DNA from: Candidatus Iainarchaeum sp.
GTDB taxonomy: Archaea; Iainarchaeota; Iainarchaeia; Iainarchaeales; JACQJH01
DNA length: 64,000 bases
NCBI GenBank assembly: GCA_016205145.1
Contig: JACQJH010000001.1
Coordinates: 451,501 to 515,500, forward strand
Direction: 5' to 3'
Under the pieces are notes generated by a model, which was not told the origin of the DNA, ran no database searches, and was given only the letters and a program-made list of their open reading frames with translations. Positions 11,319 through 24,904 of the stretch are shown here, one piece after another (position 1 is the stretch's first letter; every line of letters starts with the position of its first letter). The position numbers and the translations under genes are program-made.

Positions 11319-13775
11319 ATGAAAAAAATCACAGTCGGCATTAAAGGCATGCATTGCGCTTCCTGCGCCACGATAATCGAGCGTCGCCTCAAAAAAGTTG
11401 AAGGCGTGAAGGATGTCTCTGTCAGCGTCGCGGCAAACAGGGCGGCGATCGAATTTGATGAGGGCATTGCGGGCATTGAACAGTTTGGAAAGGCAGTGGA
11501 AAGTGCAGGGTACGAACTCGTCCAGCCGCAGGGGCAGGATTCCGGCGATGCGAAGATAACAATGCATGTAAAGGGCATGGATTCGCCGCATTGTGCGGGC
11601 ATTGTCGGGAATGCGCTCAAGGGAACCGCTGGAGTGAAAAAATTCGACCTCAGCTTCCAGAATGCCTCGGCAATGGTTGAATTCGATGCCTCCATCACCG
11701 GCTTTGATAAAATAAAGGCTTCGATTGCAAGGGCAGGCTATGATGCGGAACTGCTTGTCGGGGAGGAAACAGTGGACCAGGAGAAGGCCGCACGCGATAA
11801 AGAAATCGCGGAATTGAAGCGCAGGCTCGTTTTTTCGGCATTGCTGACCGTGCCGGTTGTCCTGCTTGCATTGCCGGAAATGCTGAAAACTGTTATGGCA
11901 TTCGAGTACCCGCAGTTCATAATGCAGAACATGGCTGCATTGCAATTGCTGTTTTCAACGCCGGTGATGTACCTTAACAGGGACATGTTTGTGAGGGGCT
12001 TCAGGGGGCTGTTGAATAACATGCCGGGCATGGACAGCCTTGTCGCTTTGGGCGTCGGGACAACCTATGCTTACAGCGCAATCGTGGCCCTGCGCATCAT
12101 TGGCGGAGTCATGTATTTTGAAACCGCTGCTTTGCTTCTCACGTTCATATTGCTTGGCAGGTACCTTGAGGCGATTGCCAAAGGAAAGACTTCCGAGGCA
12201 ATCAAGCGCCTTGTAGGGCTTGCGCCGAAAACCGCAATCGTGGTCAGGGCAGGAAAAGAGGTTGAAATTCCGATCAAGGAAGTTGTTGTCGGGGACATTG
12301 TCATTGTGAAGCCGGGCAGCAAGATTCCGGTTGACGGCGTCATAGTCGAAGGCGAAAGCAGCATTGACGAGAGCATGATTACAGGGGAGAGCATGCCCGT
12401 GCACAAGCGAAAAAATGACATTGTGATCGGCGGGACAATCAACGGCAATGGCTCTTTCAGGTTCAGGGCGACAAAAATCGGCAAGGACACAATGCTTGCG
12501 CAGATAATCCGTTTGGTGGAGGACGCGCAGGCAAGCAAGGCGCCGATCCAGAAGCTTGCAGACACTGTCGCAGGCTATTTTGTGCACGCAGTAATAGTGC
12601 TTGCATTGCTTGCCTTCGCTTACTGGTATTTCGTGGCAGGCCAGCCGTTTCTTTTCGCGCTCACAATCCTTGTTTCAACGCTTGTGATTTCCTGTCCTTG
12701 CGCAATGGGCCTTGCAACCCCGACAGCGGTCATGATTGGAACCGGCAAGGGCGCCGAGAACGGCGTGCTCATAAAAAACGCGGAGAGCCTTGAAATCCTG
12801 CATCAGGCCAAAACCTTTGTGTTCGACAAGACCGGCACAATCACCATGGGAAAGGCGTCGGTAACGGAAATCGTTCCGGTCGGAATCAAGGCAGCCGACC
12901 TTCTTTGCCTTGCGGCTTCCGCGGAAAAGAATTCCGAGCATCATTTAGCGCAGGCAATCGTGAAAAAGGCGAAGGAATCGAGGCTGAAAATTGCAGAACC
13001 GAAATCTTTCAAGGCGATTCCGGGGCATGGCGTCGAGGCAAAAGTCGGGGCGAAGAATGTTCTCATCGGAACTGTTGTCCTGATGAAAAAAAGCGGGGTC
13101 CGGATCGGAAACGATTTGGTTGGCAGGATGCAGTCGCTTGAAGAGCAGGGAAAAAGCGTTGTCCTTGTTTCGTCGGACGGAAAGCTTGTGGGAATGGTTG
13201 CGATTGCCGACACCATAAAAGAGCATGCTGCCGAGGCTGTAAGGCAATTGCAGGCAATGGGTTATGAAACCGTCATGATAACCGGCGACAATTCCCGCAC
13301 TGCAAACGCGATTGCAAAGCAGGCAGGCATTTCAAGGGTGCTGGCGCAGGTGCTTCCGTCGGACAAGGCCGCGGAAGTCAAGAAATTGCAGTTGAACGGA
13401 AGAAAGGTTGCCTTTGTCGGCGACGGCATAAACGATGCCCCGGCCTTGGCGCAGGCCGACATTGGAATCGCGATTGGCAGCGGCACCGACGTTGCGATTG
13501 AAAGCGGCGGAATAGTTTTGGTGAAAAGCGATTTGCGCGACATTGTGACGGCGGTAAAGCTTAGCAAATACACTCTCGGCAAAATAAAGCAGAATCTGTT
13601 CTGGGCTTTCGGCTACAATGCGGTCGGCATTCCGCTCGCGGCAGGCGCATTCTATCCTTTCACCGGCTGGCTTTTGTCGCCGGTCATAGCCGGAGCGGCA
13701 ATGGCTTTCAGCTCGGTAAGCGTTGTTTCGAACAGCCTGCTCATGCGCGGATGGAAACCGGATAAAAAGGTTTGA
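11319..13775 (+). CDS. copA: Copper-translocating P1B-type ATPase CopA with two N-terminal HMA domains.
   Basis: It has GMHCASCA and GMDSPHCA motifs, an [14 protein letters not shown] motif, DKTGTIT, and GDGINDAP. Confidence 0.92.
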
Positions 13776-14741
13776 CTATTGTTTTCCCGCGCTGAGCGCC
13801 TGGTAGTTTACCGCGCCGTAAGTGTTGTTTTCTTTGAGCGCGCGGATGATCTGCTGTGCCGCTTCGACCCCGCACTTGTCCTGCGCTTCCTTTGTGGCTG
13901 AGGCGATGTGCGGCGTGAGAATGACGTTGCCCAACTGCGTCAGCTCCGAGTTTTCCAATGGTTCTTTTGCGAAAACGTCGAGTGCAGCGCCGCCAAGCTT
14001 TCCGCTTTTAAGCGCTTGAACCAGGTCGGCTTCGTTTATTGCCCCGCCGCGCGCAGTGTTCACGATTTTTGCGCCGTCCTTCATTTTTGAAATAGTGTCC
14101 GCGTTAATCATTCCTTTTGTCTGCTCTGTCAGGGGAACGTGCAATGAAATCATGTCCGCCTGTGCCAGCAGTTCGTCCAACTGCACCAGGCTTGCGTTCG
14201 CTTCCCTTACATGCTCTTCTTTCGCGAAAGGGTCCGCAACGACGATTTTCATTCCGAATGCGTTGCCGCGTTTGGCAACTTCCCTTCCGATGCGGCCGAA
14301 GCCGATCAGGCCGAGAGTTTTTCCCTGAAGCTCGTTGCCCTTGAACGCTTTCTTCTCCCATTCGCCGCGCTTCATGCTCGCGTCGGCCTTTGCGATGTGC
14401 CTGTTCAATGCGATCATCAAACCGATTGCGTGCTCGGCAACGGAAACGGTGTTGCCTTCCGGGGTGTTGAAGACGAAAATGCCTTTTGCGGTCGCGGCCT
14501 GGATGTCAACATTGTCGAGGCCAACCCCGGCCCTTGAAACCGCTTTCATCTTGTGCGCTGCGGCGATGATTGCGGGCGTGACTTTCGTGGCGCTTCTCAC
14601 TATCATTGCGTCGTATCCGGAAACCGATTGCACGAGCTGTTCTTCGCTGAGCCCCTCCCGTTCATCGGCTTCGAGGCCCGCCTCTCTTATCATTTGCACG
14701 CCTTTTTTTGCGATGTTGTCCATTACGAGAACTTTTGCCAT
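13776..14741 (-). CDS. serA: D-3-phosphoglycerate dehydrogenase (2-hydroxyacid dehydrogenase family).
   Basis: Motifs GLIGFGRIGREVAKR (NAD-binding) and the catalytic region HIASAT. It sits next to a class V aminotransferase. Confidence 0.8.
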   Translation of the reverse strand: MAKVLVMDNIAKKGVQMIREAGLEADEREGLSEEQLVQSVSGYDAMIVRSATKVTPAIIAAAHKMKAVSRAGVGLDNVDIQAATAKGIFVFNTPEGNTVSVAEHAIGLMIALNRHIAKADASMKRGEWEKKAFKGNELQGKTLGLIGFGRIGREVAKRGNAFGMKIVVADPFAKEEHVREANASLVQLDELLAQADMISLHVPLTEQTKGMINADTISKMKDGAKIVNTARGGAINEADLVQALKSGKLGGAALDVFAKEPLENSELTQLGNVILTPHIASATKEAQDKCGVEAAQQIIRALKENNTYGAVNYQALSAGKQ

Positions 14742-14781
14742 TTTGGTCCCCCGGTTTTTCCCGTGCGATTTTCGCGGATTT

Positions 14782-15924
14782 TCACGCTATTGCCTTCATT
14801 GTGGCGAGAATCGAGTCGATTGTGTCCAGCAGTTCTTTCAGTTGTTCTTCCGTGGTGTCGCCCATGTGCGCTATCCTGAAAGTCTGCTGCTTGAGCTTGC
14901 TGTAACCGTTTGAAATCACATAGCCTTTTTTGCCGAGCTCTTCGTTCAGCTTGTCGATGTCGTATCCTTTCGTGTTTTTGATGCAGCTTAATGCGATTGC
15001 CTCGAAGCCCTTTTCCGGGAACAGTTCAAAGCCCTGTTCCTTGACCCAGGAGTGGCAGATGTTCCTCAGCTTTTCGTGCCTTGCAAACCTCTGTTCGAGG
15101 CCTTCCGCGAGCATGTTGTCAAGCTGTTTGTCCAGGCCGAACAATTGCGGTATTGCGGGCGTGCTCGGCGTATTGTTTTTCTGGTGGTATTTGTCCATTT
15201 CAATAAGGTCAAAATAATAGCCCCTGTTTTTCACTTCTTTCGCCTTGTCCAGCGCCTTCTGGCTCACGGATGCGATTGCCAGGCCGGGCGGCAAGGCAAA
15301 TGCCTTCTGCACTCCGGCAAGGCAGATGTCGATGCCGAAAGCGTCTGTGTCAATCGGCATTGCCGTCAGGCTTGAAACAGTGTCGACGCAGAAAATTGTT
15401 TCAGGATAGTCTTTCATCACTTTTGCGATTTGTTCAAGCGGGTTCAATACGCCGGTGGATGTTTCGCTGTGCACCAGCATTACAGATTCGTATTTTCCGG
15501 TTTCAAGCTTTTCCTTCAATGGCTCGGCCTTGTTTGCGAGGCCCCATTCCACGCTTAAAGCGTCGGCCTGCTTTCCGTTTGCGAGGCTGAGCCTGTGCCA
15601 CAGTTCGGAGAAGTTTCCGCATGTCATGTGCAGGCATTTTTCGTTTGCCGTGTTGCGCGAACAGGCTTCGAATGCGCCTGTGGAGGAGGACGTGAACATG
15701 AAGACCCTGTTCTTGGTGAACATTGCCTTCTGGATTTTCGGCTGGATTGAAGCGTACAGGCTTGCGAATTCCCTGCTCCTGTGCCCGATCATGGGCCTGC
15801 CTATCTCATGCCTGATTTCCTCGCTGACTTCCGTCGGACCCGGAATGAAAAGCCTTTTGTGCACTTCAAAATCCCCCCTAATTTCTGTTATATGCCTGAT
15901 AAAAGACTGATATTTAGCCGACAA
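14782..15924 (-). CDS. Class V aminotransferase (serine-pyruvate/phosphoserine aminotransferase-like).
   Basis: It starts with PGPTEV and has the length and motif pattern of PLP fold-type I. It is adjacent to serA. Confidence 0.75.
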   Translation of the reverse strand: MSAKYQSFIRHITEIRGDFEVHKRLFIPGPTEVSEEIRHEIGRPMIGHRSREFASLYASIQPKIQKAMFTKNRVFMFTSSSTGAFEACSRNTANEKCLHMTCGNFSELWHRLSLANGKQADALSVEWGLANKAEPLKEKLETGKYESVMLVHSETSTGVLNPLEQIAKVMKDYPETIFCVDTVSSLTAMPIDTDAFGIDICLAGVQKAFALPPGLAIASVSQKALDKAKEVKNRGYYFDLIEMDKYHQKNNTPSTPAIPQLFGLDKQLDNMLAEGLEQRFARHEKLRNICHSWVKEQGFELFPEKGFEAIALSCIKNTKGYDIDKLNEELGKKGYVISNGYSKLKQQTFRIAHMGDTTEEQLKELLDTIDSILATMKAIA

Positions 15925-16048
15925 CTTTTTTTAAAGCGTGCGTTCGGAGCCGGTTTCGTCCGGCTGGTTCGATGACGGGTATCTCGCGTTGCTCGATACC
16001 CATCTGCACTCAGCATTAAATGTTTCGGAGGCGTGCGACGGAGCCAGG

Positions 16049-17023
16049 TTATTCCTTGATTTCAGCGGCATCGATCTGCCCGTCGCCGTCCAAATCCAGG
16101 CCTTCGACAACTTTTGCGTGAATCCTTTCATTGAAAAGATTTGGCTTGGCAATCTTTTCAACGCTTTTTGCCATTGCGACAACCGCGGCCTTGGTGCCAG
16201 CATTGCGGTTTCCGGCTATGAGCAGAATGCGCTTGTCGCCGAAGAAAGGGTGTGGCGCCTTGACGATTATGCCTGTTGCGTCCTCGGTGTAGGTTTTTTC
16301 CGAAGCCGAGCTTTCAATGCCCCATGGGCCATTGCTTTGCACGAATTTTACGGGCAGCCTGTCGTTTATTTCCTGGCAGATCTTGTTTGTGATCGGCCCG
16401 CCGACAATGATTGCGTTGCTGTCAAGCTTTTCCAGTGACTCGACCATTGTGTCCAATAGCACGAAAGGGTATTTTATTTTGGAGGCATAACTGCCGAGGA
16501 TTGCTGCCAGTTCGACTGCCAGGTGGGAGTCCCTTGCCCTCGCCTTGAGCGGGCCGTGCGGATCGGGCGAGCCGATGATGATTTTGGCTGAAAAAACGCC
16601 CTTATGTATAAACGGTTCGAGGAATTCTGCAATCTCTTTAGGCACTTCCTTTTCCCTGCCTTCGATGGCCTGCTTTTCCCCGCCGGCATCCGGTGTAACG
16701 ATTGACACCGCGCCGAAGTCCGCGGAAAAGAATTTTGCCAGGGCGCCCTGTTTTTCCTGCGTCTTCTGCACCGACACAAGTCCGGATTTTTTCAGCTGGT
16801 TGATGTAATAGTATGCTTTCTGCTCCGGCATGCCCAGCTTTTTCGCCAGCTCGGCAGGATAAGCCGGCTTTTTCACCAGCTCAGAGTAAATTTTCCATGC
16901 GCTATCGCTGGCAAGCGGCCTTATTTCGCTTGCCTTGTGGGCAATTTTTGTGGCGATTCGCCTCCGGACCGCGTTCCTTTCAAATTCGACAAAATCCGCC
17001 AAAAACACCACCACTTTTAACAT
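16049..17023 (-). CDS. Winged-HTH transcriptional regulator with a central domain of unknown function and a C-terminal canonical EF-hand Ca2+-binding loop.
   Basis: The wHTH is AWKIYSELVKKPAYPAELAKKLGMPEQKAYYYINQLKKSGLV. The C-terminal DLDGDGQIDAAE matches D-x-D-x-D-G-x-I-x3-E. Confidence 0.5.
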   Translation of the reverse strand: MLKVVVFLADFVEFERNAVRRRIATKIAHKASEIRPLASDSAWKIYSELVKKPAYPAELAKKLGMPEQKAYYYINQLKKSGLVSVQKTQEKQGALAKFFSADFGAVSIVTPDAGGEKQAIEGREKEVPKEIAEFLEPFIHKGVFSAKIIIGSPDPHGPLKARARDSHLAVELAAILGSYASKIKYPFVLLDTMVESLEKLDSNAIIVGGPITNKICQEINDRLPVKFVQSNGPWGIESSASEKTYTEDATGIIVKAPHPFFGDKRILLIAGNRNAGTKAAVVAMAKSVEKIAKPNLFNERIHAKVVEGLDLDGDGQIDAAEIKE

Positions 17024-17187
17024 TTTAATAATGGTATAGCTTTTTTAATAATAATGGTTGAATTTTTATTTAAATGCTTGCCCCTGCGTTCTGAATTTTT
17101 TCTTAATGCTTCCGCGATTTTCGGGTTGGGTTTTAAATACCTGCGGAAAGCAATTGTCTTATTCGCAACTGTTTTTTGTGGTTTGTA

Positions 17188-18957
17188 ATGTGTGGAATCA
17201 TCGGCGTGAAAGGCCTGAACGGCTTCAATGAGGCGCAGCCTGCCATACTGTCGGGCCTGAAAAGCCTGGAATACAGGGGCTATGATTCCTGGGGAATTGC
17301 GCTGGAGCAGGCCGGCGGGTTTTTCGTTGAAAAGAAGGCCGGCAGGATTTCCGATGAAAAAGGCGTTTCCGAGATCCGGGCAGGCACGGGCATCGGCCAC
17401 ACTCGCTGGGCAACGCATGGAAAAGTCTGCGAGGCAAACGCGCATCCGCACCTTTCAAGGAACGGCAAAATTGCCGTGGTGCACAACGGCATAATCGAGA
17501 ACTATTCGGAGCTCAGGGAAACGCTTTCAGGCAACGGTTTCACTTTCGCATCGGAAACCGACACCGAAGTCGTTCCGCATCTGATTGAATCTTTCATGGC
17601 TGAACCCGGCAATGATTTTTTCGGCGCTGTGAGAAAGGCGCTGCTGCAGCTCGAAGGCAGCTTTGCAATCGTTGCAATGCACGCCGATTCCGATTCATTG
17701 GTTTGCGCGCGCAACGGCTCGCCCCTGCTTCTTGGAGTTTCGGATGACGCGCTTTTTGCGGCATCGGACATCACGGCTTTCCTTGGCCACACCAAAAACG
17801 CGGTTTACCTTGCCGACGGGGAAATGGCCCTGCTCTCTGACAGGCCGGAGGTTTTTTCCATTGCAACCGGCGAAGGCGTTCCGTTCAAGGTTGAAACCGT
17901 TGACTGGAACGTCGAGCAGGCGAAGAAGGGCAATTTCGCGCATTTCATGCTGAAAGAAATTTGCGAGCAGCCGCAGACAATCAGGCTTGCCATCGAGCAG
18001 GACAAGGCACTGCTTGACAAGGCAACCGGAATGCTGCGCGATGCTTTCGGCATCTTTTTTGTGGGCTGCGGCACAAGCTACCATGCCTGCGTTTCGGCGT
18101 CATACATGTTTTCCGGCATTGCGGGAAAGCACGTGAATGCCTGCCTTGCCTCGGAGTTTTCCAATTACACGGATTTCATCGGGCCGGGCGCGCTTGTCGT
18201 CGCGGTCTCGCAGTCCGGCGAAACCGCGGATTTGATTGACGCCGTGAAAACCGCAAAGCAAAAAGGCGCGAAGGTTTTGTGCATCGTGAACGTCATGGGC
18301 TCTTCGCTTTCAAGGCTCGGCGACGAAACCCTGATGATGAATGCCGGCCCTGAAATCTGCGTGCTGTCGACGAAAAGCTACACTTCACAGCTTGCAATCC
18401 TTCTGCTTCTGGCGTTTTCGCTTGCGGGCAAAGCACGGGAAGGCAGGGCGCTCATTCTGGATGCCGCGTCAAAAGTCAAAAAAGTCATTTCCGGAAACGA
18501 AAATGAAATCAAAAGGATTGCCGCCGCAACGAAAAACGCGAAAGACTATTTTGTCATTGGCAGGGACCTCGCATTCCCTTCCGCGCTTGAAGGCGCGCTC
18601 AAGATAAAGGAAGTCTCCTACATCCATGCCGAAGGCTTTGCCGGAGGGGAGTTGAAGCACGGCACAATCGCATTGGTCGAGCAGGGCGTTCCGGCAATAG
18701 TGTTTTCAACCGAAAAGACAAGGCCGCTCATCCTGGGCAATGCAATGGAAATAAAGTCGCGCGGCGGCATGATAATAGGCTTGGACTCGAAGCCGAACCC
18801 GCTTTTCGACCATTTCATTGAAGTGCCAGAAGTTTCGGAGGCAAACCCGATTTTAATGATTGTCCCAATTCAACTGCTTGCATATCATCTCGCATTGGAG
18901 CGCAATTGCGATCCGGACAAGCCGCGCAATCTCGCAAAATCTGTAACGGTGAAATGA
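17188..18957 (+). CDS. glmS: Glutamine--fructose-6-phosphate aminotransferase.
   Basis: MCGIIG N-terminal nucleophile, two SIS domains, and the conserved C-terminal VTVK. Confidence 0.92.
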   Translation: MCGIIGVKGLNGFNEAQPAILSGLKSLEYRGYDSWGIALEQAGGFFVEKKAGRISDEKGVSEIRAGTGIGHTRWATHGKVCEANAHPHLSRNGKIAVVHNGIIENYSELRETLSGNGFTFASETDTEVVPHLIESFMAEPGNDFFGAVRKALLQLEGSFAIVAMHADSDSLVCARNGSPLLLGVSDDALFAASDITAFLGHTKNAVYLADGEMALLSDRPEVFSIATGEGVPFKVETVDWNVEQAKKGNFAHFMLKEICEQPQTIRLAIEQDKALLDKATGMLRDAFGIFFVGCGTSYHACVSASYMFSGIAGKHVNACLASEFSNYTDFIGPGALVVAVSQSGETADLIDAVKTAKQKGAKVLCIVNVMGSSLSRLGDETLMMNAGPEICVLSTKSYTSQLAILLLLAFSLAGKAREGRALILDAASKVKKVISGNENEIKRIAAATKNAKDYFVIGRDLAFPSALEGALKIKEVSYIHAEGFAGGELKHGTIALVEQGVPAIVFSTEKTRPLILGNAMEIKSRGGMIIGLDSKPNPLFDHFIEVPEVSEANPILMIVPIQLLAYHLALERNCDPDKPRNLAKSVTVK

Positions 18958-18958
18958 G

Positions 18959-20347
18959 ATGGCGGAAGAAACTGCAATGAACGCAGGCACGCGGAAAAGG
19001 CGGCTGTTTGAAACCGACGGCATCCGCGGAAAGGCCAATGCCTATCCGATGACGCCTGAAATAGCGTTGCGCGTGGGCAAGGCTGTCGCAAAATATTTCC
19101 TTGAACGCAACGGAAAAACGAGCCACCGCATTGTCATAGGCAAGGATACGAGGCGTTCAGGTTACATGCTTGAAAACGCGCTTGTCTCAGGAATAGTTTC
19201 AATGGGCGCGAACGCCCTGCTTGTCGGGCCCATTCCGACCCCGGCGATAGCGCACCTGGCAAAGTCCCTGAACTGCGACGCCGGAATAATGCTTTCCGCT
19301 TCACACAATCCTGCCGAGGACAACGGCATAAAGATTTTTTCGGGGGAAGGCTTCAAGCTTGACGACAAAGTCGAGCTTGAAATCGAAAGGCTCATTTTTT
19401 CCGACATCGACGCCTCGCACATAACCGGAAACCTGGTCGGCGGGGCGAAAAGGATTGACGATGCCGCGGGCAGGTACATTGAATTCGTAAAGAATTCCAT
19501 TAACAACCAGCCCTTGGACGGCCTGAAAATCGTGCTTGACGTGGCGAACGGCTCGGCTTACAGGATTGCGCCGTGGGTTTTCTCGGAACTCGGCGCGGAA
19601 GTCATTGTCATGAACGATTCGCCTGACGGCATGAACATCAATGCAGACTGCGGTGCACTGCACGTGCAGGGCATGCTGGAAAAAGTAAAGGAAACCGGCG
19701 CAGGCATAGGCATTGCTTTCGACGGCGACGCCGACAGGATAGCGGTCTGCGACGAAACCGGAAAGGAAGTTGACGGCAACGCTTTGCTCGCCATTTTCGC
19801 GCTTGACCTTTCGGACAAGGGAAAGCTGAAAAACAATTGCGTCGTCTCGACGGTCATGGCAAACTCCGCCCTGACGGAACTGCTCGGCGGGCACGGCATC
19901 AGGACAGTCCATACGCCGGTCGGCGACAGGTATGTGATAGGCGAAATGCGCAGGGGAACATCAAATTTCGGCGGCGAGCCGAACGGCCACACTGTCTTTT
20001 TCGATTACAACACCACGGACGACGCAATGGTCGCGGCATTGCAGCTGCTTGCGATAATGAAACGGTCCGGCAAAAAGGTTTCCGAGCTTGCTTCGGTGCT
20101 CAGGCCTTTTCCGCAGGCGCTTGTCAATGTGAAGGTCCGCGAAAAAAAGCCTTTTGAAACCCTGCCCCGCGTGAAACAAAAAATCGCGGAAGCGGAAAAA
20201 TCTTTGGCAGGCAACGGCAAGGTTTTGGTGCGCTATTCGGGCACGGAAATGCTTGCCAGGGTTCTGGTTGAAAGCGGTTCCATGGAAAAATCCGAATCGC
20301 TCGCTGCTGGCATCGCAAACGTGATAAAAAATGAAATCGGCGCGTGA
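18959..20347 (+). CDS. glmM: Phosphoglucosamine mutase/phosphohexomutase.
   Basis: SASHNPAEDNGIK active-site serine loop and FDGDADR metal-binding loop. Confidence 0.88.
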   Translation: MAEETAMNAGTRKRRLFETDGIRGKANAYPMTPEIALRVGKAVAKYFLERNGKTSHRIVIGKDTRRSGYMLENALVSGIVSMGANALLVGPIPTPAIAHLAKSLNCDAGIMLSASHNPAEDNGIKIFSGEGFKLDDKVELEIERLIFSDIDASHITGNLVGGAKRIDDAAGRYIEFVKNSINNQPLDGLKIVLDVANGSAYRIAPWVFSELGAEVIVMNDSPDGMNINADCGALHVQGMLEKVKETGAGIGIAFDGDADRIAVCDETGKEVDGNALLAIFALDLSDKGKLKNNCVVSTVMANSALTELLGGHGIRTVHTPVGDRYVIGEMRRGTSNFGGEPNGHTVFFDYNTTDDAMVAALQLLAIMKRSGKKVSELASVLRPFPQALVNVKVREKKPFETLPRVKQKIAEAEKSLAGNGKVLVRYSGTEMLARVLVESGSMEKSESLAAGIANVIKNEIGA

Positions 20348-21014
20348 AAAACCGGTGATTTGGATGGCTGAACTGGCTGGGCAAAAAATCCGCGGGTTTT
20401 TGCGGCGGGTTGAAAAGGAAATCGCAAATGCAAAGAACGCCGAACTCGAATTCTGGAAACTCCTCGACGAGGCGGAAAAGCTTTGTGAAGGCATTCAGAA
20501 TGCAAGCGAAGGCGCGGTTGAGCAGAATGTTGTCGTGGAAGGATTGCTGTCCGTCGGAAAAGGCTCGGTTGTCAAGGCCGGCTCGCGCATCGAAGGCGAT
20601 GTTTTCATTGGCGGGAACTGCGTGATCGGGCCGAACGCGTACCTGCGCAAGTCTGTCGTAATCGGCGACAACTGCCATGTCGCAAACTCTGAAATAAAAA
20701 ATTCTGTCATACTGCATGATTCGAACGTCCCGCATTACTCTTACGTCGGCGACTCCGTAATTGGCGCGAACGTGAATCTCGGAGCGGGAACAAAGATTGC
20801 GAATCTGCGCTTTGACGACAAGAACATTTTCGTTGCGGTTGCCGGCAAAAAAACCGATTCCGGCAGGCGCAAGCTCGGCTGCCTCATAGGCAACAATTCG
20901 AAGCTTGGCATAAATTCCAGCGTCAACTGCGGCGTCATAATCGGCAACGGCTGTTTTGTCCGGCCGGGGAAAGTTGTGGAAAAGAACCTTGAAGATGGGG
21001 CAAAACTTGATTGA
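20331..21014 (+). CDS. Left-handed beta-helix (hexapeptide repeat) acetyltransferase. It is GlmU C-terminal-domain-like and has no nucleotidyltransferase domain.
   Basis: It carries repeated [LIV]GxxxxI hexapeptides (IGGNCVIGPNAYL..., IGANVNLGAGT...). Its start overlaps the glmM stop. Confidence 0.65.
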   Translation: MKSAREKPVIWMAELAGQKIRGFLRRVEKEIANAKNAELEFWKLLDEAEKLCEGIQNASEGAVEQNVVVEGLLSVGKGSVVKAGSRIEGDVFIGGNCVIGPNAYLRKSVVIGDNCHVANSEIKNSVILHDSNVPHYSYVGDSVIGANVNLGAGTKIANLRFDDKNIFVAVAGKKTDSGRRKLGCLIGNNSKLGINSSVNCGVIIGNGCFVRPGKVVEKNLEDGAKLD

Positions 21015-21026
21015 TTTTTTCGCGCC

Positions 21027-21371
21027 TCATCTTGTCTTGTATCCGAATTTCCGGCTGTATTTTTTGTGGTCGTACCACTCCAAAATGATGCTTACAACAA
21101 TTATTTCGTCCCTTGCCACTGAATAAATCAGCTGCCATCCTTTCGGCAGATTGTATTTCCAGCAGTTGTCTATTCCGTATTTCCTGAAATATTCCTTCGG
21201 AACCTGTTTTTTCGGCACCTGTATTCCTGAAAACGCGTTTTCCCGGATGTTTTCAAATGCCTTTTCCAAAAATCCGCTGAGCGCAAGGTCTTCAGTTGTC
21301 GAATGCCCCAATTCTTGGAATGCTATTTTTATTTTTTCATCCGCAAACCTGATTTTTGACGCAAGTTTCAT
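21027..21371 (-). CDS. RelE/ParE-superfamily toxin-like protein.
   Basis: The C-terminal WQLIYSVARDEIIVVSIILEWYDHKKY resembles the RelE beta-core. It overlaps the upstream gene by 4 nt. Confidence 0.45.
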   Translation of the reverse strand: MKLASKIRFADEKIKIAFQELGHSTTEDLALSGFLEKAFENIRENAFSGIQVPKKQVPKEYFRKYGIDNCWKYNLPKGWQLIYSVARDEIIVVSIILEWYDHKKYSRKFGYKTR

Positions 21372-21664
21372 TTTTTGTTTCCCCAGCCAAGGCTTTCCAT
21401 GGCGAGGTATTTTCTGGCAAGCGCCGGATTATAAATCCAGGCTATTTTTCGTTCCTTGTCGAGGGCAATCTTTCCCGAGTCCAGAAGATAGCCGATGGTG
21501 GTGCAGTATGTCTGGTACATCATTTTTTTCGGCAGTTTTTCCCACAGCATTCTTTTCCTGAATTCGCCTGAATGCGCTTTTATGACTTTTTCGACCATTA
21601 AGACCGTGTCCAATCGGGGATAGCGCGTGATTTGAACGGTTTCCGAAGCCACAAAAAGCACCAA
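21368..21664 (-). CDS. Small protein upstream of, and translationally coupled to, the RelE-like gene. It is a putative antitoxin or DNA-binding partner.
   Basis: Operon position and 4-nt overlap. No recognised motif. Confidence 0.3.
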   Translation of the reverse strand: MVLFVASETVQITRYPRLDTVLMVEKVIKAHSGEFRKRMLWEKLPKKMMYQTYCTTIGYLLDSGKIALDKERKIAWIYNPALARKYLAMESLGWGNKK

Positions 21665-21778: not shown

Positions 21779-24700
21779 TCAGTAGATTATTTCCTTGCCT
21801 TTCATCGCGTCCAGGAAAATCGTGCGGTTCTTTCCGTCATAGCTTTTCAGCCTTCCCTCGTATGCCGGCATGTAAACGGTTTCGATTTTTTTGACGACGA
21901 TCTTGCTCCACAGCCTTTTCAACGATTCCGCCGCCTGTTCCTTTGAAACGCGCGGGGCCTCGATTGCCACGGATTCCTGCTGTTTCAATGGCAGGCCGTG
22001 CAGCGAATTCATTATGGGGTGCAGCGGGTTTGCGGGCAAATCAACGCTCTCGTTTAGCCTGAAGGAAGTTTCATTGTTCGCGGTTTCAATTTTGATTATG
22101 TTCTTGTCCGCGAGGCTTTTCAGCAGCCTCCTGAGCCTGGCCTCGTCCATGCCGGTTTTCTGCATCAATGCTTCCAGGCCGGCCTTATCCTTTTTGAGAG
22201 CGTTGAAGAGAATCGCCTCGTTTTCGTTCAGCTGCGAAAATTCCTTGAATCCGCGTGACTCCAAAAACTCGTTTCCGGCATAGTGCAGGAATTCGCCGCT
22301 CAGGGAATTGACGTATGCCTCGCCGACATTGAAAATTTCCTTGGAGCCGAAATAGTTGAATTTGAACGCGAAAACGGGAATGAATTTGAGGTAAACGCTT
22401 TCCAGCATCTCCTCCTTTCCGAAAAATCCCAAAAACTTTTTTTGCCGCATGGCATTGAACGCTTTTCTCGCGGCTTCCTCATTGACCTGCACCGGAAACG
22501 CGAGCAGTTCCGGCGGTTCCTGCACTCCGGCTGCGGTTTCAGGTTTCGGCGCCTCTTCCTTCAAAACCTTCTTTTCGATTTCCTCCGCCTTTCTTGTCGC
22601 CTCTTCGAGCTTTTTCTCCATTTCCTCTTCGTAGCCGGGCACGCTCACGGTCTGCTTTTCGGAGTCAAATTCTATTCCCTTGCGGTCGAGCTGTTCCATT
22701 ATGTCCGATGGTTCAATGTTCGCCTTGAACTTGTTGTTGACAGTGTTTATGATCTGGCGGATTTTTTCAAGCTCAATCACGCCTTCCTTTTCAATTTTGG
22801 CGAGGCACATTTCCAATGCAAGCTTTTTCGCCTTCTCCGGATCCAGGTCCTTCGACAGTTCTGCGGTTTCAGCTTCCCTGCCTTCGTGCTGTGACATTCT
22901 CGGCCTGACCCTCATTACGAACGCCCTGCTTGTCTCCTCGCGCCTGTCGCCGGTAAGCGCGGTTCCAACGGGAAGCGTTTTGATGAACGTGGGCTTCCTG
23001 AATTTTTTTGGAATCAGGGTGGGAGTCCTCTTGAAAACGGATTTTATGTCGTCGTCGAAGACAAGCTTGTGCGTCATTATTATGTCAAGCTGTGACAGCA
23101 CGTGCGAGTCGATTGCAGACGGCTGTTGTGTTGCGAAGACAAGCGAGCAGCCGGGCTGGCGGCCCTGCTTCACATATTCTATGAGCGAAGTTGTCGCAGG
23201 CGTCTTGACGTTTCCGCTCGGAATGAGCGTATGCGCCTCGTCTATGAACAGCCATGTCGGCGGAATCTCAAGCTCCATCATTTCATCCGCATCAACAGTC
23301 TTGTGCCTGCTAGCCGCCTCACGCCTTGTGGTTTTTTTGCGCGCTGCAAGAATGCGCCTGCCAAGAATGCCTATGACCAGCGCGGAAACATTGTCCTCAA
23401 GGAAAGAGGTGTCGATGATTGTGAGCTGGTTTTCCATGCTCAGTTCGCCCAGAGGTGTGCCCTTATCGGAGAAAACGCCCCAGTTTTTTGCGGCGTCAAA
23501 CCTTGAAACCAGCGCCCTGATAGAATCGGGCTTGTAGCCCTTGTCCGAGGAATGCAGTTCCTTGTCGTTTTCAAGGCAGTTTATCAGGTCGTCAAGCGTG
23601 TAATTGCCTTTTTTTCCCGCAATTTTCGGTCCTTCCTTCTGCTCGTAGCCGCTTCTCACCTTTGAAATGACCTTTTCTATGAGCAGGCCGCTCGGCGAAA
23701 ACCTTTCAATGCCGAATGTGAGGCACCAGTCGTCGGTTGAAAGCAATGAGGCGTGCATGGAAAACGTCGCGTCAAACGTTCCGCCCGGCACCTGGTCCTT
23801 GACTCCCGCAGGAATGAATACCTTGAGGTTGTCCAAACCCTGCGGTGTCAGATCCCATTTTGCAAGCATGCCAATTTCCCTTTCATCCTTGTTCGGGAAC
23901 CTCATCGACCAGAACACGCCGATGGGGTCTATCACGATTATGCCGACGTTCTTGTTTTTGTGCGCCAGCTCTTCCGCGAGAACGCCCAAAACGTAAGACT
24001 TTCCGGATCCGCGGGCACCGTTCACGAAAATGACGTGCGGGTTGAGGCTGTCCACCAATACATTGAAATCGTTGAGTTCGGAGTCCTGCACTTTTCCGAC
24101 AAACAGGCCGGCTTCCTCGCCGTACTTTTCAAACAACGACTTTTTCCTGCCGATGAACGCAATCTTTTTTTTCTCGTCAGACAATAAGCTGAGTTCGAAC
24201 CTGCCGCCTTCCTCGTCTCTCTCCTTCTCTTTCTCGGTTTTCGCCTCGACCGGGTTTGGCTTGTGCTGGTCGGAATAAATGTCCGCTTCGCGGATGCCGA
24301 CTTCCTTGTCGAACGGCAGGAGTTCATCCTTCTGCGCGTAAATGGATGCCTTCTCCAGAATGACGTCCTTTATCTGCTGCTTGTCCTCTTCCTCCAAGGC
24401 GATTTGTTCAAGCTCGTCGTTCATTTCAAGGTCGTCAGCTGCCTGCTTTTTGGCCTTGACTCCCGCCGCATCTAAATCCGTTTCCGCGCCTTTTCCCGCC
24501 CTGCCTTCGCCGGCAATGCCATTCCCGCTTTCCTTTGCCGCGGCGTTTTGGGCGGGTTTTTGTTTCGCCTGCCTTTTCCTTTTCACGCGCTTTTCATCGG
24601 GCGCCGCGCTTTCAATAACGGTTTCGTTTTCGAACCCGGCTTTTTCGGCCGGAACGCCTTTTCCTTTTTCCGCTGTTTCCGGCGCGTTTTCTTCTGTTAT

Positions 24701-24904
24701 GTTTTCGCCTTCTTCGCCCGCGCTTTTCGCCTTTTTTTCGGCTTTTTCCTTCAGTTCAATGGTCTTTTTCTTCCTTGCCTCGCGCGCCGCCTTGCGCTCG
24801 TTGCTTTCGCCCAAGACCTCGTCGAAAATGTCCTTGTCGTCCTCGACAAAAGAGGTCTCAATGACCTTCTCGTCATCGCTTTCGCTGGCTTCGGCTTCAG
24901 GCAT
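21779..24904 (-). CDS. Large (1041 aa) HerA/DUF87-type P-loop ATPase. It has a roughly 260-aa acidic/Lys-rich disordered N-terminus and a roughly 400-aa C-terminal extension containing wHTH-like segments.
   Basis: Walker A FVNGARGSGKS. Walker B with DEAH (LFIDEAHTL). A VFATQQPS sensor-like motif. The rest is low-complexity E/K-rich. Confidence 0.65.
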   Translation of the reverse strand: MPEAEASESDDEKVIETSFVEDDKDIFDEVLGESNERKAAREARKKKTIELKEKAEKKAKSAGEEGENITEENAPETAEKGKGVPAEKAGFENETVIESAAPDEKRVKRKRQAKQKPAQNAAAKESGNGIAGEGRAGKGAETDLDAAGVKAKKQAADDLEMNDELEQIALEEEDKQQIKDVILEKASIYAQKDELLPFDKEVGIREADIYSDQHKPNPVEAKTEKEKERDEEGGRFELSLLSDEKKKIAFIGRKKSLFEKYGEEAGLFVGKVQDSELNDFNVLVDSLNPHVIFVNGARGSGKSYVLGVLAEELAHKNKNVGIIVIDPIGVFWSMRFPNKDEREIGMLAKWDLTPQGLDNLKVFIPAGVKDQVPGGTFDATFSMHASLLSTDDWCLTFGIERFSPSGLLIEKVISKVRSGYEQKEGPKIAGKKGNYTLDDLINCLENDKELHSSDKGYKPDSIRALVSRFDAAKNWGVFSDKGTPLGELSMENQLTIIDTSFLEDNVSALVIGILGRRILAARKKTTRREAASRHKTVDADEMMELEIPPTWLFIDEAHTLIPSGNVKTPATTSLIEYVKQGRQPGCSLVFATQQPSAIDSHVLSQLDIIMTHKLVFDDDIKSVFKRTPTLIPKKFRKPTFIKTLPVGTALTGDRREETSRAFVMRVRPRMSQHEGREAETAELSKDLDPEKAKKLALEMCLAKIEKEGVIELEKIRQIINTVNNKFKANIEPSDIMEQLDRKGIEFDSEKQTVSVPGYEEEMEKKLEEATRKAEEIEKKVLKEEAPKPETAAGVQEPPELLAFPVQVNEEAARKAFNAMRQKKFLGFFGKEEMLESVYLKFIPVFAFKFNYFGSKEIFNVGEAYVNSLSGEFLHYAGNEFLESRGFKEFSQLNENEAILFNALKKDKAGLEALMQKTGMDEARLRRLLKSLADKNIIKIETANNETSFRLNESVDLPANPLHPIMNSLHGLPLKQQESVAIEAPRVSKEQAAESLKRLWSKIVVKKIETVYMPAYEGRLKSYDGKNRTIFLDAMKGKEIIY

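What the first reader, a model, noticed from the sequence alone, without database searches (positions are those of the whole stretch)
16049..17187. wHTH regulator terminating in a canonical EF-hand loop, divergent from glmS-glmM
DLDGDGQIDAAE at the extreme C-terminus satisfies every EF-hand loop position. A Ca2+-binding loop on an archaeal winged-helix regulator is unusual. The 160-nt intergenic region shared with glmS contains TTAATAATGG and TAATGCTT direct repeats that could be its operator.
Basis: seen in the sequence. Interest (0 to 1): 0.55.

Follow-up and report, generated by a model that had tools for sequence, protein, structure and literature searches.

The report
Conserved archaeal regulator beside glmS
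This gene encodes a DNA-binding regulator found in hundreds of tiny DPANN archaea and mislabelled as an S-layer protein; it sits back-to-back with the amino-sugar gene glmS, shares a conserved binding-site motif with it, and ends in a conserved calcium-type loop that is not a true EF-hand.

Summary
ORF 16049-17023 (-) encodes a 324-aa protein with an ArsR/TrmB-type winged helix. Its last 15 residues match the PROSITE EF-hand loop pattern. It is divergent from glmS-glmM across a 164-nt spacer.

- Residues 129-300 are homologous to the archaeal S-layer anchor/dimerisation domain (PF05124; PDB 9FSA). This explains the public label "S-layer protein".
- The protein belongs to a large uncharacterised family with relatives in at least 559 species-level genomes; the best 80 are labelled almost entirely as DPANN lineages.
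- glmS, or a glmM-glmU-glmS operon, is the divergent neighbour in about 48 of 70 informative loci.

However, it is predicted as strand-loop-strand, occurs once per protein, and scores below Pfam's EF-hand cut-offs. It is a Dx[DN]xDG cation loop, not a canonical EF-hand.

TAATGCTT is not supported.

Best reading: an autoregulated, one-component regulator of UDP-GlcNAc synthesis. The effector and any Ca2+ role are untested.

The parts
16049..17023 (-). Regulator CDS, 324 aa (stop codon at 16049-16051). It is 100% identical to a protein from a Candidatus Diapherotrites MAG that is annotated 'S-layer protein'.
16940..16996 (-). N-terminal beta-hairpin (residues 10-28) preceding the winged helix. 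It is conserved in the family and is not a signal peptide.
16721..16933 (-). Winged helix-turn-helix (residues 31-101). The recognition helix 67-79 (EQKAYYYINQLKK) carries invariant Q68, Y71 and Y72.
16640..16699 (-). Variable inter-domain linker (residues 109-128), containing the low-confidence stretch at about residues 111-125.
16124..16639 (-). C-terminal domain (residues 129-300), homologous to the S-layer anchor/dimerisation domain (PF05124; PDB 9FSA).
16529..16570 (-). Family-specific, near-invariant segment S152-PDPHG-xx-KARARD165. A 7-residue stretch within it has no counterpart in the aligned M. voltae S-layer domain. Candidate effector site (inferred).
16061..16096 (-). Dx[DN]xDG / EF-hand-like 12-residue loop, D310-E321 (DLDGDGQIDAAE).
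16052..16120 (-). C-terminal beta-hairpin (residues 302-324) carrying the loop. It ends in the near-invariant terminal Glu.
17026..17037 (-). Operator-like site 2, ATACCATTATTA (13.9 bits), at -14 to -3 from the regulator ATG.
17049..17060 (-). Operator-like site 1, CAACCATTATTA (10.4 bits), at -37 to -26 from the regulator ATG. It overlaps an A/T-rich TATA-like stretch.
17067..17074 (.). Palindromic TATA-like box TATTTAAA. Possible alternative TATA for the regulator (inferred).
17132..17139 (+). TATA-like box TTTAAATA about 50 nt upstream of the glmS ATG. Likely glmS promoter (inferred).
17188..18957 (+). glmS, glutamine:fructose-6-phosphate amidotransferase, starting MCGIIG.
18959..20347 (+). 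glmM-type phosphoglucosamine mutase.
20331..21014 (+). Left-handed beta-helix (hexapeptide) acetyltransferase resembling the GlmU C-terminal domain. It overlaps glmM by 17 nt.

Best explanation
The gene encodes a cytoplasmic one-component transcription factor of a previously uncharacterised family. The best 80 genomic loci are labelled almost entirely as DPANN lineages.

Proposed mechanism:
- The N-terminal PH1932/Phr-like winged helix recognises a pseudo-palindromic operator, ATAC[CT]A[TCG]TAT[AT]A. The perfect form is ATACTAGTAT.
- In this window two copies lie 23 bp apart, at -37 and -14 from the regulator's own start codon. They flank or overlap its A/T-rich core promoter.
- Binding should therefore repress the regulator's own transcription.
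- From the same position, upstream of the glmS TATA box, binding should also control the divergent glmS-glmM-acetyltransferase (UDP-GlcNAc synthesis) operon.
- The C-terminal domain is a contiguous version of the S-layer anchor domain, which forms a two-fold dimer in Methanococcus voltae. It most likely provides dimerisation.
- Its family-specific PDPHG...KARARD segment most likely senses an amino-sugar phosphate or nucleotide sugar such as GlcN6P or UDP-GlcNAc.
- The terminal DxDxDG hairpin most likely holds a divalent cation that stabilises the end of the domain, rather than acting as an EF-hand switch.

Shown here: the domain architecture, the family and loop conservation, the synteny, and the conserved motif with its positions.

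Inferred: DNA binding, the direction of control, the identity of the effector, and metal binding.
For: - Architecture: Pfam HTH_20 and TrmB score above their cut-offs, and S_layer_C scores 48.8 bits against a cut-off of 23.9. TIGR01564 scores 37.2 against 25.
- Models: the AF2 models have pLDDT 92.5 for the full length and 93.6 (pTM 0.90) for the C-domain.
- Solved relatives: a family profile against PDB sequences gives PH1932 at E = 1.3e-14, the 9FSA S-layer anchor at 1.8e-7 and Phr at 2.1e-6. Foldseek agrees.
- Dimerisation: the 9FSA domain forms the two-fold axis of the M. voltae S-layer anchor (PMC11410804).
- Family size: 924 hits; 144 clusters at 50% identity with E < 1e-30; relatives in at least 559 GTDB species genomes.
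- Synteny: glmS is divergent and adjacent in 43 of 70 loci with enough upstream DNA. It lies within 3 kb in 51 of 80. In five more loci (L053, L054, L066, L067, L070) the intervening genes lie on the glmS strand; they match glmM and/or the hexapeptide acetyltransferase in four of them (L067 unidentified).
- Motif strength: information content is 9.9 bits, against 6.8 +/- 0.14 in shuffles.
- Motif density: 12.8 hits/kb in these spacers, against 0.96/kb in 267 other intergenic gaps.
- Held-out test: a PWM trained on 23 spacers (the window, L002-L024 and L069; mostly labelled Iainarchaeum) gives a median best score of 10.5 bits in 18 other-lineage spacers. The 37 control gaps give 4.6 bits (p = 3.2e-6).
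- Separated loci: where glmS is separated from the regulator by other genes (L001, L035, L072), a motif copy also lies upstream of glmS.
- Specificity in the window: only two hits of at least 10 bits occur in the 64-kb window, and both are in this spacer.
- Recognition helix: Q68, Y71 and Y72 are invariant.
- RNA alternative: no glmS ribozyme or other Rfam family is found in the spacer.
Against: - No experiment supports DNA binding, effector binding or metal binding.
- In 22 of 31 loci without the adjacent divergent glmS arrangement, mostly Woesearchaeota-type, no motif lies upstream of the regulator. Their glmS promoters could not be inspected, so the regulon is unproven there.
- The operator is A/T-rich and lies in A/T-rich promoter DNA, so part of the signal could reflect shared promoter architecture.
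- The distance from the operators to the glmS TATA box varies from about 10 to about 100 bp between loci. The direction of glmS control is therefore unclear.
- No structural relative of the C-domain is a known small-molecule sensor.
Confidence: 0.6

Rival explanations
1. The protein is a Ca2+-responsive transcription factor. The C-terminal loop would be the sensor, and Ca2+ occupancy would switch DNA binding, linking envelope or ionic status to UDP-GlcNAc supply.
For: The loop matches PS00018. Positions 1, 3, 5, 6, 8 and 9 are kept in at least 97% of 238 relatives. The family ends exactly three residues after position 12 in 211 of 238 members. Dx[DN]xDG loops bind Ca2+ in near-identical fashion in many structural contexts (PMC3123361).
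Against: The loop is predicted as strand-loop-strand, unpaired, and lacks an exiting helix that could transmit a conformational change. The bidentate position 12 is Glu in only 79% of relatives and Lys/Arg in 11%. A second, equally conserved site (PDPHG..KARARD) exists that could be the sensor. [quoted passage not shown]
Confidence: 0.15
2. The protein is a housekeeping DNA-binding or chromatin-type protein whose position next to glmS is inherited gene order, not regulation.
For: The family is near-universal in these lineages. In about 20 loci the gene sits among unrelated housekeeping genes, such as a TP_methylase-family methyltransferase, ribosomal protein S15 and a DHH phosphoesterase, with no motif upstream.
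Against: The divergent orientation with glmS is kept in loci labelled as several different DPANN lineages, while the other neighbours change. A specific motif is shared by these spacers and follows glmS when the two genes are separated.
Confidence: 0.15
3. The protein acts on proteins rather than on transcription, for example as a partner or modulator of the GlmS enzyme in the manner of Bacillus GlmR. The winged helix would then serve as an interaction module.
For: The synteny with glmS is tight. The C-domain fold recurs in carbohydrate-handling proteins: BcsB and the N-terminal domains of GH115, GH67 and GH84 enzymes.
Against: The winged helix matches DNA-binding ArsR/PadR regulators with an invariant recognition helix. 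A conserved palindromic DNA motif accompanies the gene. There is no homology to GlmR, which belongs to the CofD/YvcK family.
Confidence: 0.05
4. The protein is a genuine S-layer or cell-surface protein, as NCBI annotates it.
For: PF05124 and TIGR01564 score above their cut-offs. Database names say 'S-layer protein'.
Against: It is 324 aa with an N-terminal winged helix. It has no signal peptide or transmembrane segment; the maximum 19-residue hydropathy is 1.19. Homologues start with acidic or polar residues such as MDSFV and MADFV. Only the anchor/dimerisation domain is shared with S-layer proteins, and here it is contiguous, with no inserted outer domains.
Confidence: 0.02

Closest known systems
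PH1932 (PDB 1ULY/2CWE) and Phr (PDB 2P4W), ArsR-like winged-helix regulators of Pyrococcus
   Same: The N-terminal winged helix is homologous. The family profile gives E = 1.3e-14 for PH1932 and 2.1e-6 for Phr, and Foldseek aligns 84 residues to 1ULY at rmsd 1.2 A. All are archaeal, and these Pyrococcus proteins are dimeric DNA binders (my own knowledge).
   Different: Those proteins dimerise through a C-terminal helical region (my own knowledge). This family instead carries a 200-residue S-layer-anchor-like alpha/beta domain with a terminal DxDxDG hairpin.
S-layer protein anchor/dimerisation domain of Methanococcales and Thermococcales (Pfam PF05124 S_layer_C, TIGR01564; PDB 9FSA from M. voltae)
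   Same: The C-domain is homologous (48.8 bits; profile E = 1.8e-7; Foldseek E = 1.3e-6, TM 0.67 normalised to the target). Shared motifs are IVVGS, LDTEV, LVGGPxxN and VxAG..aT. In M. voltae the domain forms a two-fold dimer.
   Different: In S-layer proteins the domain is split: residues 24-75 plus 484-576, with the outer domains inserted between them, and the protein is secreted. Here the domain is contiguous and, by inference, cytoplasmic. It also has a 7-residue insertion within PDPHG..KARARD and an extra 38-residue tail carrying the cation loop.
EF-hand and other Dx[DN]xDG calcium-binding loops (PROSITE PS00018; Rigden et al. 2011, PMC3123361), including the integrin-like 'calcium blade'
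   Same: The 12-residue loop matches the pattern, and the liganding positions 1, 3, 5 and 9 are near-invariant.
   Different: There is no helix-loop-helix, no paired hand and no Pfam-level match. The strand-loop-strand context resembles propeller 'calcium blades', but here the motif is a single hairpin at the extreme C-terminus of a transcription factor.
Bacterial amino-sugar regulators (NagC, NagR/DasR, the glmS ribozyme, GlmR) and archaeal dual regulators at divergent promoters (SurR, TrmBL1). This comparison rests on my own knowledge.
   Same: The proposed logic is the same: a one-component factor next to its target, sensing a pathway metabolite and autoregulating through operators in a shared divergent spacer.
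   Different: There is no sequence or fold relationship to any of them. No glmS ribozyme is present. The effector and the sign of regulation are unknown.

Membership tests
Canonical EF-hand | 12-residue loop consensus (PROSITE PS00018) | tested here: met
   Regex match at residues 310-322. The chance rate is about 5e-4 per shuffled protein.
Canonical EF-hand | Helix-loop-helix: an entering helix E and an exiting helix F starting at loop position 10 | tested here: not met
   DSSP on two AF2 models with pLDDT above 92 gives strand 302-309, loop, strand 319-322. Only three residues follow position 12.
Canonical EF-hand | Occurs as a pair of EF-hands forming one domain | tested here: not met
   There is one match per protein in all 268 relatives examined.
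Canonical EF-hand | Score above Pfam's gathering threshold for the EF-hand models | tested here: not met
   EF-hand_5 scores 16.5 against 25.9. EF-hand_1 scores 13.5 against 25.4.
Canonical EF-hand | Binds Ca2+ | not testable with these tools
   This needs ITC, 45Ca overlay, or a structure with bound metal.
Dx[DN]xDG calcium-binding loop (Rigden et al.) | Dx[DN]xDG linear motif with an acidic residue at position 9, conserved among homologues | tested here: met
   Among 238 relatives: D1 100%, D/N3 97%, D5 98%, G6 97%, D9 98%.
ArsR/TrmB-type winged-helix transcription factor | wHTH domain recognised by family models and by structural comparison | tested here: met
   HTH_20 scores 31.0 (cut-off 27) and TrmB 28.0 (cut-off 25.6). 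PH1932 is matched at E = 1.3e-14. Foldseek aligns 1ULY at rmsd 1.2 A.
ArsR/TrmB-type winged-helix transcription factor | Sequence-specific DNA binding to a (pseudo)palindromic operator | tested here: inconclusive
   A conserved pseudo-palindromic motif is found next to the gene across lineages. Binding itself was not tested.
ArsR/SmtB metalloregulator | Metal-sensing alpha3N/alpha5 sites; score above the NCBIfam cut-off | tested here: not met
   NF033788 scores 16.6 against 55. CmtR scores 18.1 against 150.
Archaeal S-layer protein (TIGR01564 / PF05124) | Contains the S_layer_C domain | tested here: met
   PF05124 scores 48.8 bits against 23.9. TIGR01564 scores 37.2 against 25, matching only positions 484-569 of the 571-position model.
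Archaeal S-layer protein (TIGR01564 / PF05124) | Secreted protein of about 500-600 aa with a signal peptide and outer lattice domains inserted into the anchor domain | tested here: not met
   The protein is 324 aa and begins with a wHTH. No hydrophobic leader is present. The domain is contiguous, whereas the 9FSA construct joins residues 24-75 and 484-576.
glmS ribozyme / RNA-based glmS control | Rfam covariance-model match in the glmS leader | tested here: not met
   No relevant match at E <= 1 in 15900-17500.

The most novel reading that the evidence does not exclude
The terminal Dx[DN]xDG hairpin would be a genuine intracellular Ca2+ (or other divalent-cation) sensor on a transcription factor. 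It would couple cation or envelope status to UDP-GlcNAc production across DPANN archaea. That would make it a prokaryotic functional analogue of the eukaryotic Ca2+-regulated repressor DREAM, built from an S-layer anchor domain recruited into the cytoplasm.
Probability: 0.12. Interest if true: 0.8.

Novelty: new variant of a known kind. Interest (0 to 1): 0.55.

Why it matters
**Regulation in DPANN archaea.** These archaea have very small genomes and few recognisable regulators, and nothing is known experimentally about how they control envelope-precursor synthesis. I found no described transcriptional regulator of glmS in archaea in the searchable literature. This family offers a concrete, testable candidate: a defined protein, a defined 12-bp operator and a defined target operon, conserved in hundreds of genomes.

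**Annotation.** The result corrects a systematic misannotation as 'S-layer protein'.

**Domain evolution.** The anchor/dimerisation module of archaeal S-layer proteins has a cytoplasmic homologue. That bears on how S-layer proteins were assembled from existing domains.

**Calcium-loop contexts.** A near-invariant Dx[DN]xDG loop on a DNA-binding protein that is inferred to be intracellular is an unusual context. Rigden et al. found only EF-hands and calcium blades intracellularly in large numbers.

Tried and rejected
- **CapG hit.** A single-sequence phmmer hit to the UDP-sugar 2-epimerase CapG (7YA2, E = 0.024) looked attractive given the UDP-GlcNAc context. It disappeared in the family-profile search, so I rejected it as chance.
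- **RNA control.** An Rfam scan of the spacer and flanks found no glmS ribozyme or other element.
- **Co-loss test.** I tested whether loss of the cation loop goes with loss of the PDPHG/KARARD segment. The odds ratio is 3.4 and p = 0.014 without phylogenetic correction. This is no stronger than the correlation with general divergence, so it is inconclusive.
- **TAATGCTT.** It has one exact copy in the spacer. The best PWM score there is 6.2 bits, below any useful threshold.
- **Paralogues.** None is present in the window.
- **Promoter scan.** The sigma-70 promoter scan was not used because the organism is an archaeon.
- **Model coordinates.** I could not examine the spatial relation between the loop, the terminal Glu, the PDPHG/KARARD segment and the dimer interface.
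- **Literature.** Three searches found no description of this family or of an archaeal glmS regulator.
Full report
**What is at the coordinates**

The ORF at 16049-17023 on the minus strand encodes 324 residues ending ...AKVVEGLDLDGDGQIDAAEIKE. Pfam finds a winged helix: HTH_20 scores 31.0 bits and TrmB 28.0, both above their cut-offs, at residues 38-89. This is an S_layer_C domain (PF05124, 48.8 bits against a cut-off of 23.9) at residues 180-286. EF-hand_5 and EF-hand_1 match the last 15 residues, but below their cut-offs (16.5 against 25.9; 13.5 against 25.4). NCBIfam gives TIGR01564 'S-layer protein' at 37.2 bits. The match covers only the last 86 positions of that 571-position model.

Residues 310-322 match the PROSITE EF-hand loop pattern PS00018. 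Shuffles of the same protein match it only 96 times in 200,000.

The divergent genes are glmS, a glmM-type mutase and a hexapeptide acetyltransferase. The glmS start must be the ATG at 17188, which gives MCGIIG. The catalytic N-terminal cysteine of Ntn amidotransferases requires this (established knowledge). The spacer is therefore 164 nt.

The first reported repeat is real. It is an exact 10-mer TAATAATGGT at 17026 and 17049, 23 bp apart, found nowhere else in the window. The second repeat is weak. TAATGCTT occurs once in the spacer, with a 7/8 copy nearby.

**The family**

The protein is 100% identical to a protein from a Candidatus Diapherotrites MAG that is annotated 'S-layer protein'. It has 924 relatives at E <= 1e-3, and most of those listed are 300-325 aa with the same architecture.

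An exhaustive search of cluster representatives gives 144 clusters at 50% identity with E < 1e-30. A scan of one genome per GTDB species finds relatives in at least 559 genomes. The best 80 are labelled as follows:
- Iainarchaeum (Diapherotrites)
- Woesearchaeota
- Aenigmatarchaeota
- Nanoarchaeota
- Micrarchaeota
- Nanohaloarchaea
- unclassified 'archaeon'
- a few odd labels, which I take to be binning or labelling errors

Conservation is high. The mean column identity is 54% over 53 sequences. Invariant residues lie in three places:
- the recognition helix: Q68, Y71, Y72
- a segment G151-S-P-D-P-H-G157 ... K160-A-R-A-R-D165
- L190-D-T and G208-G-P-x-T-N213, plus the C-terminal loop

**The C-terminal loop**

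Of 120 close homologues, 112 match PS00018 at the extreme C-terminus. Of 148 distant cluster representatives, 119 keep DxDxDG there. Most of the rest are truncated fragments.

Over the 238 full-length relatives that carry the loop, the loop positions are as follows:

| Loop position | Residue(s) | Frequency |
|---|---|---|
| 1 | D | 100% |
| 3 | D or N | 97% |
| 5 | D | 98% |
| 6 | G | 97% |
| 8 | I or V | 97% |
| 9 | D | 98% |
| 12 | E | 79% |
| 12 | K or R | 11% |

In 211 of the 238, the protein ends exactly three residues after position 12. The last residue is Glu in 209 of 256 sequences.

The loop is nevertheless not a canonical EF-hand. Two AlphaFold models were made: the full length (pLDDT 92.5) and the C-domain alone (pLDDT 93.6, pTM 0.90). 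Both place the loop between two beta-strands, 302-309 and 319-322. There is no exiting helix and no partner hand. It belongs to the wider class of Dx[DN]xDG loops, which bind Ca2+ in many structural contexts. Rigden et al. note that only EF-hands and propeller 'calcium blades' are common inside cells (PMC3123361). A near-invariant copy on a DNA-binding protein, which I infer to be intracellular, is therefore unusual. Metal binding is untested.

**The C-terminal domain**

A family profile searched against PDB sequences matches three entries:

| PDB entry | Protein | E-value |
|---|---|---|
| 1ULY | PH1932 | 1.3e-14 |
| 9FSA | M. voltae S-layer anchor | 1.8e-7 |
| 2P4W | Phr | 2.1e-6 |

Foldseek on the isolated C-domain model gives the following hits:

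| Hit | E-value |
|---|---|
| 9FSA (TM 0.67 normalised to the target) | 1.3e-6 |
| BcsB (16 chains) | 6e-5 to 8e-4 |
| N-terminal domains of GH115, GH67 and GH84 glycosidases | >= 1e-2 |

9FSA is an engineered fusion of residues 24-75 and 484-576 of the M. voltae S-layer protein. It forms the two-fold axis of a dimeric anchor (PMC11410804). In the S-layer protein the domain is therefore split by the outer lattice domains, whereas here it is contiguous.

The residue-level alignment shows shared motifs: IVVGS, LDTEV, LVGGPxxN and VxAG..aT. It also shows two features specific to the regulators. One is a 7-residue insertion within the PDPHG..KARARD segment. The other is the last 38 or so residues, which carry the cation hairpin.

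The protein has no hydrophobic leader. Its maximum 19-residue hydropathy is 1.19, and homologues begin with polar or acidic residues. The 'S-layer protein' label is a domain-level transfer, not a correct functional name.

**Genomic context**

I analysed 80 loci from other genomes. Only glmS, PGM/PMM-family (glmM-type) mutase genes and the hexapeptide acetyltransferase recur upstream of the regulator.
- glmS is divergent and adjacent in 43 of the 70 loci with at least 700 nt of upstream sequence. It lies within 3 kb on the opposite strand in 51 of 80.
- In L053, L054, L066, L067 and L070 the intervening genes lie on the glmS strand. In all but L067 they match glmM and/or the hexapeptide acetyltransferase, so the regulator faces a glmS-containing operon.
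- In about 20 loci, mostly Woesearchaeota-type, the gene instead follows a TP_methylase-family methyltransferase gene and a small wHTH gene on the same strand. In some it is followed by a DHH phosphoesterase and ribosomal protein S15.

**The operator**

An EM motif search on 40 non-redundant regulator-glmS spacers converges on ATAC[CT]A[TCG]TAT[AT]A. Its information content is 9.9 bits, against 6.8 +/- 0.14 (maximum 7.1) in shuffled sets. In many loci it scores on both strands with a 2-nt offset, which means it is a pseudo-palindrome. The perfect form is ATACTAGTAT, as in L021 and L023. Where two same-strand copies lie close together, the start-to-start spacing is 20-23 bp.

Hit density, compared with 267 other intergenic gaps of the same loci, is as follows:

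| Threshold | Regulator-glmS spacers | Other intergenic gaps |
|---|---|---|
| 8.5 bits | 12.8 hits/kb | 0.96 hits/kb |
| 12 bits | 3.75 hits/kb | 0.11 hits/kb |

To avoid circularity, I trained a PWM on 23 spacers only: the window, L002-L024 and L069, mostly labelled Iainarchaeum. I then tested it on 18 spacers from other lineages. The median best score is 10.5 bits, against 4.6 in 37 control gaps from the same loci (Mann-Whitney p = 3.2e-6).

In L001, L035 and L072 glmS has its own upstream region, and a motif copy lies there too.

In this window the only two hits of at least 10 bits in 64 kb are 17026-17037 (ATACCATTATTA, 13.9 bits) and 17049-17060 (CAACCATTATTA, 10.4 bits).

**Mechanism**

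The two sites lie at -14 and -37 from the regulator's ATG. They bracket an A/T-rich stretch, TTATTATTAAAAAA, at about -31 to -18, where a TATA box for a leaderless or short-leader mRNA would sit. If instead the palindromic TATTTAAA at 17067-17074 is the TATA box, the sites fall between the TATA box and the transcription start, and just downstream of it.

Either way the sites overlap the regulator's own core promoter. In archaea that position means repression by blocking TBP/TFB or RNA polymerase (established knowledge from MDR1, Phr, TrmB and SurR). Negative autoregulation is therefore the best-supported step.

For glmS the likely TATA box is TTTAAATA at 17132-17139. The sites lie upstream of it, by about 70-100 bp here and by only about 10 bp in short spacers such as L009. 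A position upstream of BRE/TATA is compatible with activation, or with BRE occlusion in the compact spacers. I cannot decide the sign.

Three further steps are inferred:
- The C-domain very probably dimerises the protein, by homology to 9FSA.
- The near-invariant, basic, regulator-specific PDPHG..KARARD segment is the best candidate for binding an anionic pathway metabolite such as GlcN6P or UDP-GlcNAc.
- The cation hairpin is most simply a structural metal site at the end of the domain.

**Alternatives**

- Ca2+ as the actual signal is not excluded, and it is the most novel reading. Against it stand the lack of a transmitting helix and the 11% Lys/Arg at position 12.
- A housekeeping DNA-binding role with inherited gene order is weakened by the motif following glmS.
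- A GlmR-like protein-protein role has no support beyond the synteny.
- A true S-layer role is excluded for practical purposes.
- RNA-based control is not indicated.

**Limits**

- Everything about binding to DNA, metal or metabolite is inferred.
- The A/T-rich motif sits in A/T-rich promoter DNA.
- The glmS promoters of genomes where the two genes are unlinked could not be fetched.
- Model coordinates could not be analysed, so the geometry of the loop, the terminal Glu and the conserved basic segment is unknown.

**Verdict**

The object is a member of a large, undescribed and misannotated family of one-component regulators, found mainly in DPANN-labelled genomes and tied to UDP-GlcNAc synthesis. 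It has a new effector/dimerisation domain related to S-layer anchors and a conserved non-EF-hand cation loop. This is a new variant of a known kind. Interest is moderate: the finding is directly testable, it touches an open question about regulation in DPANN archaea, and there is a small chance of a real Ca2+-sensing transcription factor.

Noticed in passing
L002:524-2194 (-) and L002:2211-2696 (-); the same families occur in 6-7 loci: A HAD + CofD (PF01933, the YvcK/GlmR-type family) fusion gene and a GNAT acetyltransferase lie directly downstream of glmS in several DPANN loci. Bacillus GlmR is a CofD-family protein that binds UDP-GlcNAc and activates GlmS (my own knowledge). A second, post-translational layer of GlmS control may therefore exist.
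   Followed up: partly
window 21779-24904 (-): A 1041-aa HerA/DUF87-type ATPase with a long charged N-terminal region. A relative lies on the glm-operon side of the regulator in 14 loci, mostly labelled Iainarchaeum or unclassified archaeon.
   Followed up: partly
window 21027-21371 (-) and 21368-21664 (-): Two small overlapping ORFs (114 and 98 aa) with no Pfam match. The same pair, at about 59% identity, is adjacent in a Woesearchaeota locus (L043:9721-10310). This is possibly a toxin-antitoxin-like mobile pair.
   Followed up: no
window 17176-17187: The mechanical ORF start of glmS (TTG 17176) adds four residues before the obligatory Met-Cys. The real start is ATG 17188.
   Followed up: yes
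window 17059-17073 / 17092-17106 and 17069-17081 / 17132-17144: The spacer holds further imperfect direct repeats: TGAATTTTTNNTTAA twice, and TTTAAAT[GA]C[TC]TGC twice. The second pair looks like duplicated TATA-box regions.
   Followed up: partly
L030:369-1136 (+), L030:1240-1518 (+) and about 10 similar loci: In Woesearchaeota-type genomes the regulator follows a TP_methylase-family methyltransferase gene and a 92-aa winged-helix gene on the same strand. It has no operator motif upstream, which suggests a different transcriptional arrangement in that lineage.
   Followed up: partly
window 11319-15924: Downstream of the regulator lie a class-V aminotransferase (14782-15924, -), a D-2-hydroxyacid/phosphoglycerate dehydrogenase (13776-14741, -) and a copper-type P-type ATPase with two HMA domains (11319-13775, +). 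None of these is conserved next to the regulator in other loci.
   Followed up: yes
L019, L050, L025 and other loci: Several loci carrying this archaeal family are deposited under labels such as Peregrinibacteria, Campylobacterales or 'uncultured Methanosarcinales'. These are probably binning or labelling errors in the public records.
   Followed up: no
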